Shown: positions 31,801 through 34,800 of the stretch, piece by piece
Numbering within the stretch: the stretch's first letter is position 1
Layout: every line of letters begins with the position of its first letter
Assembly: GCF_003334355.1 (NCBI RefSeq)
Contig: NZ_QOWP01000008.1
Length of the DNA stretch: 64,000 nucleotides
From: Escherichia coli
GTDB lineage: Bacteria; Pseudomonadota; Gammaproteobacteria; Enterobacterales; Enterobacteriaceae
Direction: 5' to 3' (one strand)
Made by a program: the position numbers

Positions 31801-34800
31801 ATGGTCGTGGGCCATGAATATGTCGGTGAAGTGGTAGGTATTGGTCAGGAAGTGAAAGGCTTCAAGATTGGCGATCGCGTTTCTGGCGAAGGCCATATCA
31901 CTTGCGGTCACTGTCGCAACTGTCGTGGCGGTCGTACCCATCTGTGCCGCAACACGATCGGCGTCGGCGTTAACCGTCCGGGCTGCTTCGCCGAATATCT
32001 GGTGATCCCGGCGTTCAACGCCTTCAAAATCCCAGACAATATCTCCGACGACCTGGCTTCCATTTTTGATCCCTTCGGTAACGCCGTGCATACCGCGCTG
32101 TCGTTCGATCTGGTTGGCGAGGATGTGCTGGTCTCTGGTGCAGGTCCGATAGGTATTATGGCTGCGGCGGTGGCGAAACACGTTGGTGCACGCAATGTGG
32201 TGATCACTGATGTTAATGAATATCGTCTCGAACTGGCGCGCAAAATGGGTATCACCCGTGCGGTCAACGTCGCTAAAGAAAACCTTAATGATGTGATGGC
32301 AGAACTGGGCATGACCGAAGGTTTTGATGTCGGTCTGGAAATGTCCGGTGCGCCGCCAGCGTTTCGTACCATGCTTGACACCATGAACCACGGCGGCCGT
32401 ATTGCGATGCTGGGTATTCCGCCGTCTGATATGTCTATCGACTGGACCAAAGTGATCTTTAAAGGCTTGTTCATTAAAGGTATTTACGGTCGTGAGATGT
32501 TTGAAACCTGGTACAAGATGGCGGCGCTGATTCAGTCTGGCCTCGATCTTTCGCCGATCATTACCCATCGTTTCTCTATCGATGATTTCCAGAAGGGCTT
32601 TGACGCTATGCGTTCGGGCCAGTCCGGGAAAGTTATTCTGAGCTGGGATTAACACGAACAAGGGCTGGTATTCCAGCCCTTTTATCTGAGGATAATCTGT
32701 TAAATATGTAAAATCCTGTCAGTGTAATAAAGAGTTCGTAATTGTGCTGATCTCTTATATAGCTGCTCTCATTATCTCTCTACCCTGAAGTGACTCTCTC
32801 ACCTGTAAAAATAATATCTCACAGGCTTAATAGTTTCTTAATACAAAGCCTGTAAAACGTCAGGATAACTTCAGAGGTCGTCGGTAATTTATGATGAACA
32901 GCACCAATAAACTTAGTGTTATTATTCCGTTATATAATGCGGGCGATGATTTCCGCACTTGTATGGAATCTTTAATTACGCAAACCTGGACTGCTCTGGA
33001 AATCATTATTATTAACGATGGTTCAACGGATAATTCTGTTGAAATAGCAAAGTATTACGCAGAAAACTATCCGCACGTTCGTTTGTTGCATCAGGCGAAT
33101 GCTGGCGCATCGGTGGCGCGTAATCGTGGGATTGAAGTTGCAACGGGCAAATATGTCGCTTTTGTCGATGCTGACGATGAAGTCTATCCCACCATGTACG
33201 AAACGCTGATGACCATGGCGTTAGAGGACGACCTCGACGTGGCGCAGTGCAACGCTGACTGGTGTTTTCGTGAAACGGGAGAAACCTGGCAATCCATCCC
33301 CACCGATCGCCTTCGCTCAACCGGCGTCTTAACCGGCCCGGACTGGCTGCGGATGGGGCTTTCTTCGCGCCGTTGGACTCACGTTGTCTGGATGGGGGTT
33401 TATCGCCGTGATGTTATTGTTAAAAATAACATTAAATTTATTGCCGGATTACATCATCAGGATATTGTCTGGACAACAGAATTCATGTTTAACGCGCTGC
33501 GTGCGCGATATACCGAGCAATCATTATATAAATATTATCTGCATAATACGTCAGTGAGTCGGTTGCATAGACAAGGGAATAAAAACCTTAATTATCAACG
33601 TCACTATATTAAGATTACCCGCCTGCTGGAGAAATTAAATCGAAATTATGCCGACAAAATTATGATTTATCCGGAATTTCATCAGCAAATAACTTACGAG
33701 GCATTGCGTGTTTGCCATGCGGTGCGCAAAGAGCCGGATATTCTTACCCGCCAACGGATGATTGCCGAGATATTTACTTCCGGTATGTATAAGCGCCTGA
33801 TTACCAATGTGCGCAGCGTGAAGGTCGGTTACCAGGCGTTACTGTGGTCTTTCCGCTTATGGCAATGGCGCGACAAAACGCGGTCGCACCATCGCATTAC
33901 GCGTAGCGCCTTTAATTTGCGCTAGCGTTAAACTTCGCCGCTTCGGGCTGTTTGCCCCAGCCTTGCCACTGATGCTGGAAGTAAACGATCAGCGTGCTCT
34001 GGCTGATGCTTTCGCTTAATACTTCAAAGAAGCGATTAGCATAAACAGGTTCTATCGGTTTCTTCGGTTTGCACAGCTTCACGCCACGGAACGGATTACG
34101 CGGTGCATCAGGCACAGCGTTTTTCGGCGGTGTAGAAGTATCAACCTGCGGTTCATTCAGCAAGCTGCTGGCTTTCACCAGCGTAATGTCTGGCGGCAGG
34201 TTATAAACCATCTGTTGTAGCACGCGTACCGTTGAAGGGTGAGGATGCCCAATGGCAATGGTTGAACCGTTGCGACGCGCCAGATCAATTGCGCGATTAA
34301 ATTGCACACGGATGTCCGCTTCGTTCTGCGAATCGTCGAGGAACACCTTCCGTTTGATCACCTTCACGCCAGTACCTTGCGCGGCGCGCATCGCCTGGGT
34401 ATTACCGATGGTTACGCTGTCGAGGAAGTAAAGATTGTAACGCTCCAGTGCCTGCATCACTTTCTGCATACCAAACAGGTTAGAGGTCATCTTGCTACCC
34501 ATGTGGTTGTTGATCCCCACGGCATAGGGCACGTTATTGACCGCACTACGAATAATGCGCTCAATTTCGTCGCTGCTCATCTCCGGGCGCAGCGTATTTT
34601 TCTCCAGCGGCTGTTTACTCAGTGGTGCCATCGGGAGATGAATCAACACTTCGTGCCCGCTGTTATGCGCTTTGGTCGCCATCTCTCTGGCGTGCGGTGA
34701 ATCGGGTAATACAGCGACGGAGATAGCGGAGGGCATCGCCAGCACCTGGTTTTCGTTGTGCGGGCGATACCCAAAATCATCAATGACGATGGCAAGTTTG

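What the first reader, a model, noticed from the sequence alone, without database searches (positions are those of the whole stretch)
33912..33925. Convergent 14-nt overlap of waaH and yibQ 3' ends, and tight overlaps in lldPRD
The waaH stop lies inside the last codons of yibQ on the opposite strand, so transcription of either gene must run into the other, which could allow antisense interference. Separately, lldP/lldR share 1 nt and lldR/lldD share 4 nt, consistent with translational coupling.
Basis: seen in the sequence. Interest (0 to 1): 0.15.

Follow-up and report, generated by a model that had tools for sequence, protein, structure and literature searches.

The report
Ordinary tail-to-tail waaH/yibQ gene overlap
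Two E. coli genes on opposite strands really do share their last 14 bases, and three lactate genes abut by 1 and 4 bases, but both arrangements are already in the reference annotation, are common in bacteria, and show no sign of special function.

Summary
waaH (32891-33925, +) and yibQ/sddA (33912-34871, -) overlap tail-to-tail by 14 nt. lldP/lldR share 1 nt (TAATG, 43874) and lldR/lldD share 4 nt (ATGA, 43098-43101). All three junctions are identical in the RefSeq annotation of E. coli K-12 MG1655. The window is an E. coli chromosome.

The 14-nt overlap recurs in 12 of 32 enterobacterial species that have the two genes side by side. Its cause looks passive. The variable, disordered C-terminal tail of YibQ reads into the conserved 3' end of waaH. 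It stops at a TAA (TGA in Salmonella) that is the antisense of waaH's [Leu/Phe]-Asn codons.

The overlap is dispensable. About 310 O157:H7-type genomes carry a +1 frameshift that ends waaH 5 nt before the yibQ stop, and other species have 0-4 nt overlaps or gaps up to 113 nt.

There is no intrinsic terminator and no conserved hairpin. Published bicyclomycin data place a Rho termination region about 324 nt past the yibQ stop, antisense to waaH. Regulatory antisense interference remains untested.

The lldPRD junctions are the two commonest operon junction types.

Verdict: already known, low interest.

The parts
32891..33925 (+). waaH (yibD) CDS, 344 aa, UDP-glucuronate:LPS(HepIII) glycosyltransferase. 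Its stop TAG is at 33923-33925.
   Evidence: ORF. RefSeq annotation. The C-terminus ...A[F/L]NL[R/G/S/Y]* is conserved in relatives.
33912..34871 (-). yibQ (sddA) CDS, 319 aa, periplasmic denuded-glycan deacetylase and last gene of gpmM-envC-yibQ. TTG start at 34871; stop TAA at 33914-33912.
   Evidence: Function, operon and disordered C-terminal region (catalytic domain 24-238) come from bioRxiv 10.1101/2025.02.18.638797.
33912..33925 (.). The 14-nt tail-to-tail overlap. It encodes the last residues of YibQ (A-S-A-N-stop) and of WaaH (F-N-L-R-stop). The yibQ stop is the antisense of waaH tTT-AAt (Phe-Asn).
   Evidence: read directly. The same 14-nt geometry occurs in 12 of 32 species. Alignment.
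33900..33927 (.). Imperfect palindrome CGCGTAGCGC-(9 nt)-GCGCTAGCG spanning the overlap. The yibQ stop sits in the loop. It has no U-tract on either strand and is specific to Escherichia.
   Evidence: Folds. Not conserved across genera. Not called as a terminator.
33862..33896 (-). 13-bp hairpin in the yibQ-strand RNA, 16-50 nt after the yibQ stop and inside the waaH coding sequence. It has two G-U pairs, so it is weaker on the + strand. No U-tract follows it.
   Evidence: z = -2.55 for the 151-nt stretch. No covariation. No Term-seq 3' end is listed there.
33588..33588 (-). Published Rho termination region for yibQ-strand transcription (MG1655 3789384 +), 324 nt past the yibQ stop and antisense to waaH.
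   Evidence: PMC7815308 supplementary file 2: reads upstream/downstream 106/28 without BCM and 187/274 with BCM, Rho score 5.55. Coordinate mapping verified.
32930..32930 (+). Published Rho termination region 39 nt inside the waaH ORF on the sense strand (MG1655 3790042 -). waaH-strand transcription is largely stopped here in LB.
   Evidence: PMC7815308 supplementary file 2: 95/20 without BCM and 154/187 with BCM, Rho score 5.77. Mapping.
43874..45529 (-). lldP CDS (L-lactate permease). Its stop TAA is at 43876-43874.
43098..43874 (-). lldR CDS (regulator). Its ATG at 43874-43872 shares base 43874 with the lldP stop (TAATG). Its stop TGA is at 43100-43098.
41911..43101 (-). lldD CDS (L-lactate dehydrogenase). 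Its ATG at 43101-43099 overlaps the lldR stop (ATGA, 4 nt). A GAGGGAG Shine-Dalgarno-like motif lies about 8 nt upstream.

Best explanation
This is a passive, tail-to-tail ('convergent') overlap of two real genes, produced by stop-codon drift. It is not a dedicated regulatory device.

The conserved part of YibQ/SddA ends at ...QWQGW. After that comes a short, variable, disordered tail. In the Escherichia/Salmonella/Citrobacter amalonaticus-type lineage this tail has no stop of its own. It reads into the conserved 3' end of waaH. There it terminates at a TAA or TGA that is the reverse complement of waaH's [Leu/Phe]-Asn codons (xTT-AAT or CTC-AAT).

waaH's C-terminal peptide is conserved, so the yibQ stop stays 14 nt inside waaH in every descendant. 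The last YibQ residues are simply whatever the antisense of waaH encodes.

There is no room for a terminator and none is present. Transcription of gpmM-envC-yibQ therefore continues antisense into waaH and is ended by Rho a few hundred nt downstream. waaH transcripts, induced in low phosphate, must likewise end inside yibQ antisense. Some sense/antisense pairing is thus unavoidable whenever both are expressed, but nothing indicates it has been selected as a switch.

lldP/lldR (TAATG) and lldR/lldD (ATGA) are the standard junctions of a co-transcribed operon. They most likely permit termination-reinitiation coupling.

Shown: the coordinates, the conservation pattern, the absence of a terminator or conserved structure, and the Rho region (published).

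Inferred: the drift scenario, the lack of regulatory role, and lld coupling.
For: - Overlap and annotation.
- Of 32 species with yibQ and waaH adjacent, the overlap is 14 nt in 12, 4 nt in 5 and 0 nt in 10; gaps of 6-113 nt occur in 5. YibQ tails after QWQGW differ freely (GKQPEAAKFNASAN, GNTSSPSTINANAD, GKIAAPKNVSAKTD and others), while WaaH ends A[F/L]NL[RGSY]*.
- Salmonella diarizonae keeps the stop at the same place through CTC-AAT, read as TGA on the other strand.
- The overlap phase puts waaH wobble bases opposite yibQ second codon positions (read). This explains the variable YibQ tail.
- About 310 O157:H7-type genomes carry a +1 frameshift. It ends waaH at the TAG at 33904-33906, leaving a 5-nt gap.
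- No intrinsic terminator. The fold z-score on the + strand is only -1.45. The consensus structure across 11 species is -4.6 kcal/mol with a covariation term of 0.04.
- Adams et al. list no Term-seq 3' end between MG1655 3786938 and 3790287 in the sheets seen, but do list a Rho region at 3789384(+).
- Relatives lacking waaH often have a canonical hairpin plus U-tract 2-21 nt after the yibQ stop; none of the waaH-bearing loci do.
- Convergent overlaps number 75 in E. coli. The -4 and -1 junctions are the commonest.
- The SddA C-terminal region is dispensable for catalysis.
Against: - The same 14-nt geometry survives across several genera. In two Citrobacter genomes waaH was deleted up to exactly the yibQ stop, leaving the relic CTTAATTTGCGTTAG. 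This could mean the yibQ end is under selection. It is equally explained by selection on the yibQ ORF alone.
- RNase III-type duplexes have been captured inside yibQ at window 34684-34704 and 34618-34638 (PMC7373196 Table S3). Antisense RNA opposite yibQ therefore exists and is processed.
- waaH is strongly inducible: 4-fold PhoB-dependent in K-12 and 46- to 80-fold in O157. That could make interference conditional.
- Prc degrades SddA, and an AlphaFold3 model puts the terminal KFNASAN in the Prc active site. The overlap-encoded residues might therefore matter at the protein level.
Confidence: 0.75

Rival explanations
1. Conditional excludon. When phosphate is scarce, strong waaH transcription runs into yibQ (and perhaps envC) antisense. 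It would lower SddA relative to EnvC by RNA polymerase collision and/or RNase III cleavage of the duplex. Conversely, constitutive gpmM-envC-yibQ read-through would damp waaH in phosphate-replete cells.
For: - Transcripts must overlap.
- yibQ-strand transcription reaches at least 324 nt into waaH antisense and rises with BCM.
- RNase III-type duplexes lie inside yibQ.
- In low Pi, waaH counts are about 5-6 times those of envC.
- 165 convergent excludons have been proposed for MG1655 (PMC12288877).
- SddA:EnvC balance matters for cell separation.
Against: - envC changes only by log2 -0.4 (not significant) between WT and the phoB deletion. The yibQ value was not retrievable.
- The duplexes lie 700-790 nt from the overlap, and their antisense source is unknown.
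- The overlap is absent in O157:H7 and in many species.
- There is no conserved structure.
- The O157 waaH biofilm phenotype was complemented in trans, so it acts through the protein, not in cis.
- The pair could not be checked in the ExcludonFinder list because no supplement was held.
Confidence: 0.12
2. The palindrome at 33900-33927 is an overlapping bidirectional terminator or pause site of the collision type described by SEnd-seq. It would give both mRNAs defined 3' ends within the overlap.
For: A 9-10 bp GC-rich inverted repeat sits exactly over both stop codons. Bidirectional terminators between convergent E. coli genes are reported to be common and need not resemble intrinsic terminators (bioRxiv 10.1101/2022.10.23.513370).
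Against: - There is no flanking A/U tract, and the terminator scan does not call it.
- No Term-seq 3' end is listed at or near it in three conditions. Termination on the yibQ strand is Rho-dependent about 300 nt further on.
- The palindrome is not conserved outside Escherichia.
- The + strand fold is not unusual (z = -1.45).
Confidence: 0.06
3. Protein-level constraint. The overlap persists because the extreme C-terminus of SddA (…KFNASAN) is a recognition tail for the tail-specific protease Prc, so the yibQ stop position is selected for its own sake.
For: - Prc lowers SddA levels in vivo, and AlphaFold3 places KFNASAN at the Prc active site.
- The yibQ end is retained after waaH deletion in Citrobacter.
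Against: - The terminal residues differ widely between species (…NANAD, …ANPD, …ISEG, …AKTD, …VNPG) and often end in Asp or Gly.
- In many relatives YibQ ends right after QWQGW.
- The Prc contact is only a model.
Confidence: 0.05

Closest known systems
Convergent (tail-to-tail) overlapping gene pairs of bacterial genomes, created by stop-codon movement
   Same: Two conserved protein-coding genes on opposite strands share a short stretch at their 3' ends, with each stop inside the other's last codons. The overlap arises because one ORF runs on to the next available stop. There are 75 such pairs in an E. coli genome (PMC4161906).
   Different: Nothing essential differs. The only particular feature is that the yibQ stop is supplied by the conserved [Leu/Phe]-Asn codons of waaH. 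This fixes the overlap at 14 nt across several genera.
Excludon / convergent transcriptional interference loci (e.g. the 165 convergent excludons proposed for E. coli MG1655)
   Same: Neighbouring convergent genes whose transcripts necessarily overlap. One partner is constitutive (gpmM-envC-yibQ) and the other inducible (waaH). Antisense read-through is limited by Rho.
   Different: Reciprocal expression and RNase III dependence at this pair have not been shown. The only expression datum found (envC) shows no significant change.
Overlapping bidirectional terminators between convergent E. coli genes (e.g. ynaJ-uspE)
   Same: A hairpin-forming palindrome lies between, or here within, the two 3' ends.
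   Different: No defined 3' ends were reported here. Termination on one strand is Rho-dependent and lies further downstream. The palindrome is not conserved.
ATGA / TAATG operon junctions with translational coupling by termination-reinitiation
   Same: lldR/lldD uses ATGA (-4) and lldP/lldR uses TAATG (-1). These are the two commonest co-directional junctions in E. coli (PMC10666635).
   Different: Coupling has not been measured for lldPRD. lldD also has its own good Shine-Dalgarno-like GAGGGAG, so independent initiation is possible.

Membership tests
Convergent overlapping gene pair | Both partners are genuine protein-coding genes on opposite strands | tested here: met
   RefSeq annotations. 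Both are conserved across Enterobacteriaceae by tblastn. YibQ/SddA is biochemically characterised. waaH is expressed and regulated.
Convergent overlapping gene pair | Each stop codon lies inside the other gene's coding sequence | tested here: met
   waaH stop at 33923-25; yibQ stop at 33914-12; overlap 33912-33925.
Convergent overlapping gene pair | The overlap is not a strain-specific sequencing or frameshift artefact | tested here: met
   The 141-bp junction is present in 5425 of 5426 complete E. coli genomes. The 14-nt geometry is found in 12 species of several genera. It is absent from the roughly 310 O157:H7-type genomes, which carry a frameshift.
Excludon | Transcripts of the two genes overlap | tested here: met
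   This is logically required by the CDS overlap. A Rho termination region lies 324 nt past the yibQ stop, antisense to waaH (mapped).
Excludon | Mutually exclusive or reciprocal expression of the two partners | tested here: inconclusive
   Only envC could be read from PMC10294691 Table S1: log2FC -0.4, not significant, while waaH is +2.1. The yibQ row was not in the stored part of the file.
Excludon | RNase III processing of the overlapping duplex | tested here: inconclusive
   p19-captured duplexes map to yibQ at 34618-34704, far from the overlap. None was seen labelled waaH, and the file was truncated.
Bidirectional intrinsic terminator | GC-rich hairpin flanked by an A-tract upstream and a U-tract downstream, so that it terminates on both strands | tested here: not met
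   The hairpin at 33900-33927 is followed by UUAAACUUCG on the + strand and AAUGCGAUGG on the - strand. The scan does not call it.
Bidirectional intrinsic terminator | Defined RNA 3' ends at the element | tested here: not met
   No curated Term-seq 3' end is assigned to yibQ or waaH in PMC7815308 supplementary files 1 and 3.
Translationally coupled operon junction (termination-reinitiation) | Same-strand genes whose stop and start overlap as ATGA or TAATG | tested here: met
   lldR/lldD ATGA at 43098-43101; lldP/lldR TAATG at 43874.
Translationally coupled operon junction (termination-reinitiation) | Translation of the downstream gene depends on translation of the upstream gene | not testable with these tools
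   This needs reporter fusions with a premature stop in the upstream gene, as in PMC10666635.

The most novel reading that the evidence does not exclude
The waaH/yibQ junction acts as a phosphate-responsive excludon. Induction of waaH in low phosphate would drive RNA polymerase and antisense RNA through yibQ (sddA). This would lower the septal glycan deacetylase relative to its operon partner EnvC, and so link phosphate starvation to daughter-cell separation and biofilm behaviour. In return, constitutive envC-yibQ read-through, held in check by Rho, would keep waaH quiet in phosphate-replete cells.
Probability: 0.1. Interest if true: 0.4.

Novelty: already known. Interest (0 to 1): 0.08.

Why it matters
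It matters little. The overlap is part of the standard K-12 annotation and belongs to a well-described class.

Its practical relevance is for people who engineer this locus. Any clean deletion or tagging of the waaH 3' end alters the last residues and the stop of SddA/YibQ, and the reverse also holds. A waaH knock-out cassette with an outward promoter or terminator will change antisense transcription across yibQ/envC. This should be kept in mind when interpreting waaH or sddA mutant phenotypes.

The locus is also a tidy illustration of two points. First, a conserved C-terminus on one strand can pin the stop codon of the gene on the other strand. Second, an operon that lacks room for an intrinsic terminator relies on Rho inside the neighbouring gene.

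Tried and rejected
- Intrinsic or bidirectional terminator in the overlap. The scan found none. The hairpins at 33900-33927 and 33862-33896 lack U-tracts and show no conservation or covariation across 11 species. Rejected.
- Known RNA family. An Rfam gathering scan of the whole window hit only JUMPstart at 18258-18296.
- rut-like C-rich, G-poor composition downstream of either stop. C/G ratios are 0.8-1.2, with no signal.
- Annotation artefact or alternative stops. Both frames have back-up stops only 5 codons (yibQ) and 2 codons (waaH) further on. The stops as read are those annotated in RefSeq.
- Additional transcript-end datasets. SMRT-Cappable-seq supplements contain no mention of these genes. 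No supplements were held for Conway 2014, Dar & Sorek 2018 or ExcludonFinder. Ju et al. 2019 was not held.
- The yibQ fold-change in the PhoB RNA-seq table. The stored file was truncated, so only envC and waaH were recovered.
- The protein-database, structure-prediction and metagenome tools were not used. Gene identities were already settled by RefSeq annotation and the literature.
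Full report
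**What the window is.** The 2.4 kb around the finding is 100% identical to E. coli strain 720632. It is present in 5425 of 5426 complete E. coli genomes. Against K-12 MG1655 the 7 kb around it is 98.05% identical without gaps. Coordinates convert as K-12 + window = 3822972. Gene order is kbl-tdh-waaH on the + strand. It is followed by yibQ-envC-gpmM on the - strand and, further on, by lldD-lldR-lldP on the - strand.

**Checking the observation.**
- Read directly, waaH ends ...GCC TTT AAT TTG CGC TAG, with the stop at 33923-33925.
- On the other strand yibQ ends ...AAC GCT AGC GCA AAT TAA, with the stop at 33914-33912.
- The ORF listing gives the same ends. So does RefSeq for strain 720632 and for MG1655, where yibQ is 3788101-3789060 and waaH is 3789047-3790081.
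- For the lactate operon, the lldP stop and lldR start form TAATG and share base 43874. The lldR stop and lldD start form ATGA at 43098-43101. MG1655 is annotated identically.
- Both halves of the observation are confirmed. Both are already part of the reference annotation.

**Is it more than chance?**
- A stop codon is not a matter of annotation choice, so the overlap is real wherever both genes are real. Both are real.
- YibQ has been characterised as SddA, a periplasmic deacetylase of denuded glycan strands encoded in the gpmM-envC-yibQ operon.
- waaH is annotated as UDP-glucuronate:LPS(HepIII) glycosyltransferase. It is cited as adding glucuronic acid to the third heptose of the K-12 LPS core (Klein et al., as cited in bioRxiv 10.1101/536201). 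It is induced by phosphate limitation.
- The arrangement is not unusual. [quoted passage not shown]
- The -4 (ATGA) and -1 junctions are by far the commonest spacings of co-directional genes (PMC10666635).
- Within the 27 kb of L001 there are three further short overlaps besides the two in the finding's title: waaG/rfaP 8 nt, secB/gpsA 1 nt and lldR/lldD 4 nt.

**Comparative anatomy of the junction.** I fetched 80 loci encoding YibQ relatives, one per species, and located waaH and both stops in each. Thirty-two species have waaH convergent and adjacent.

| Junction | Species (n) | Examples |
|---|---|---|
| 14-nt overlap | 12 | E. coli, E. albertii, Salmonella enterica diarizonae, Citrobacter amalonaticus, C. 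sedlakii, a C. youngae strain, a Leclercia MAG, Silvania, Cedecea colo, an Enterobacter |
| 4-nt overlap (stops as CTAG/TTAA) | 5 | some Kluyvera, Pseudescherichia vulneris |
| 0 nt (abutting stops) | 10 | C. freundii complex, some Kluyvera |
| Gaps of 6-113 nt | 5 | Superficieibacter, Pseudocitrobacter, Kosakonia cowanii |

- The conserved part of YibQ ends at ...QWQGW. What follows is a tail of 1 to about 14 residues with almost no sequence conservation.
- WaaH of the E. coli type, by contrast, ends in a conserved A-[F/L]-N-L-[R/G/S/Y].
- In all twelve 14-nt cases the yibQ stop is the reverse complement of waaH's [F/L]-N codons. It is xTT-AAT read as TAA in eleven species. In Salmonella it is CTC-AAT read as TGA.
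- The overlap phase puts waaH wobble positions opposite yibQ second codon positions. Silent change in waaH therefore recodes the YibQ tail, which is what the alignment shows.
- The simplest reading: the weakly constrained YibQ tail has no stop of its own in this lineage and runs on until the conserved end of waaH supplies one. Conservation of the 14 nt is then a by-product of conservation of WaaH.

**Natural experiments.**
- In O157:H7-type genomes, GACAAAAC has become GAAAAAAAC. About 310 of 5425 genomes fall within one difference of the O157 sequence, EDL933 included. This shifts the waaH frame so that it ends at the TAG at window 33904-33906. The product is 338 aa, and 5 nt separate the two stops.
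- PGAP calls this a frameshifted pseudogene. Even so, an EDL933 waaH deletion has a biofilm phenotype that is complemented in trans.
- In ETEC1748 most of the waaH 3' part is deleted but the junction is kept.
- In strain FDAARGOS_1267 phage-type genes (Mor transcription activator, gp16 family protein) lie where the upstream part of waaH would be. No waaH CDS is annotated, and yibQ is intact. This fits a Mu-like prophage insertion.
- In two Citrobacter genomes waaH has been deleted from the tdh terminator up to exactly the yibQ stop. This leaves the relic CTT AAT TTG CGT TAG and a YibQ ending ...INANAN.
- The overlap as such is therefore dispensable, whereas the yibQ reading frame is preserved.

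**Transcription.**
- Neither strand has an intrinsic terminator at or near the junction.
- E. coli has a palindrome across the overlap (33900-33927, with the yibQ stop in the loop). It also has a 13-bp hairpin just downstream on the yibQ strand (33862-33896). Neither has a U-tract.
- Neither hairpin is conserved. The RNAalifold consensus over 11 species is -4.6 kcal/mol with essentially no covariation.
- Published 3'-end mapping in MG1655 lists no Term-seq 3' end for yibQ or waaH in three growth conditions.
- The accompanying bicyclomycin experiment lists a Rho termination region at 3789384(+), 'antisense waaH'. Reads upstream/downstream were 106/28 untreated and 187/274 treated, Rho score 5.55, p = 1.8e-15 (PMC7815308). 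This is window 33588, 324 nt beyond the yibQ stop.
- A second region at 3790042(-) lies 39 nt inside the waaH ORF, with score 5.77. It shows that in LB most waaH-strand transcription is stopped by Rho at the start of the gene.
- Consistently, relatives that lack waaH often carry a textbook hairpin plus U-tract 2-21 nt after the yibQ stop. None of the waaH-bearing loci do (crude scanner).
For the yibQ strand it is documented.

**Is there antisense regulation?**
- This step is not supported by anything I could find, though it is not excluded.
- In its favour: RNase III-type 21-nt duplexes captured by p19 map inside yibQ at window 34684-34704 and 34618-34638 (PMC7373196 Table S3). Antisense RNA opposite yibQ therefore exists.
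- Also in its favour: waaH is strongly inducible.
- Against it:
  - The duplexes lie 700-790 nt from the overlap, and their source is unknown.
  - envC, the gene just upstream of yibQ, changes by only log2 -0.4 (not significant) between wild type and a phoB mutant in low phosphate, while waaH changes 4-fold.
  - The overlap is absent from O157:H7 and many species.
  - No conserved RNA element exists.
- I give a functional excludon about 10-12%.

**A protein-level aside.** The SddA study reports that the C-terminal region (after residue 238) is disordered and not needed for catalysis. It also reports that the tail-specific protease Prc lowers SddA levels, and that an AlphaFold3 model places the terminal KFNASAN in the Prc active site. 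The last four of those residues are encoded in the overlap. The tails of other species are very different and often end in Asp or Gly. A conserved degron is therefore unlikely.

**lldPRD.** The ATGA and TAATG junctions are confirmed and conserved in the reference annotation. They are the canonical geometry for termination-reinitiation coupling. lldD also has a good Shine-Dalgarno-like GAGGGAG upstream, so it may initiate independently as well. Coupling is a reasonable inference and was not tested.

**Verdict.** Novelty: already known. Interest: low.

Noticed in passing
window ~33870-33877 (L083 1521-1531): O157:H7-type genomes (about 310 of 5425, including EDL933) carry GACAAAAC changed to GAAAAAAAC. 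This +1 frameshift replaces the last 21 WaaH residues, ends the ORF at TAG 33904-33906 and abolishes the overlap with yibQ. PGAP labels waaH a pseudogene there, although a waaH deletion phenotype in EDL933 was reported and complemented in trans.
   Followed up: yes
L007 3950-4080 and L009 (Citrobacter sp. Awk 4 and R56): waaH is deleted from the tdh terminator up to exactly the yibQ stop. This leaves the relic CTTAATTTGCGTTAG (the last four waaH codons plus stop), which still encodes the end of YibQ.
   Followed up: yes
L085 1-3000 (E. coli FDAARGOS_1267); L084 1691-2512 (ETEC1748): In FDAARGOS_1267, phage-type genes (Mor activator, gp16 family protein) lie where the upstream part of waaH would be and no waaH CDS is annotated. 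This suggests a Mu-like prophage insertion. ETEC1748 has lost about 200 bp of the waaH 3' part. In both, yibQ and the junction sequence are intact.
   Followed up: partly
window 32930 (+): A published Rho termination region lies 39 nt inside the waaH ORF (MG1655 3790042, Rho score 5.77). It suggests waaH is kept low in LB by premature Rho-dependent termination of transcripts entering from upstream.
   Followed up: partly
window 34618-34638 and 34684-34704: Two p19-captured, RNase III-type 21-nt duplexes map in the 5' part of yibQ (PMC7373196 Table S3). An antisense RNA opposite yibQ therefore exists. Its origin is unknown: it could be waaH read-through, or the promoter-like site at 33568-33595 on the + strand.
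   Followed up: partly
L027, L030, L042, L043, L060, L074 (2-21 nt after the yibQ stop): Species without waaH next to yibQ often have a canonical intrinsic terminator (9-10 bp GC-rich stem plus T-run) immediately after yibQ. Loci with waaH have none.
   Followed up: partly
window 18258-18296 (+): JUMPstart RNA element (Rfam RF01707, 55 bits), as expected upstream of an LPS core (waa) operon.
   Followed up: no
window 39311; L001 419-426: There are further short same-strand overlaps in the neighbourhood: secB/gpsA share 1 nt and waaG/rfaP overlap by 8 nt. This shows how ordinary such junctions are.
   Followed up: no
window 45897-49916 (-): A 1339-aa ORF next to lldP falls under a larger CDS annotated in the matching genome as a YadA-like family protein (trimeric autotransporter adhesin type; record span 5025 nt, cut at the locus end). 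In K-12 the gene upstream of lldP is the small yibL instead.
   Followed up: no
window 36134/36158, 43874/43889, 45529/45556, 37712/37856: The mechanical ORF list extends envC, lldR, lldP and gpmM to upstream in-frame GTG/TTG/ATG codons beyond the RefSeq starts. With the GTG start, lldR would overlap lldP by 16 nt instead of 1.
   Followed up: partly
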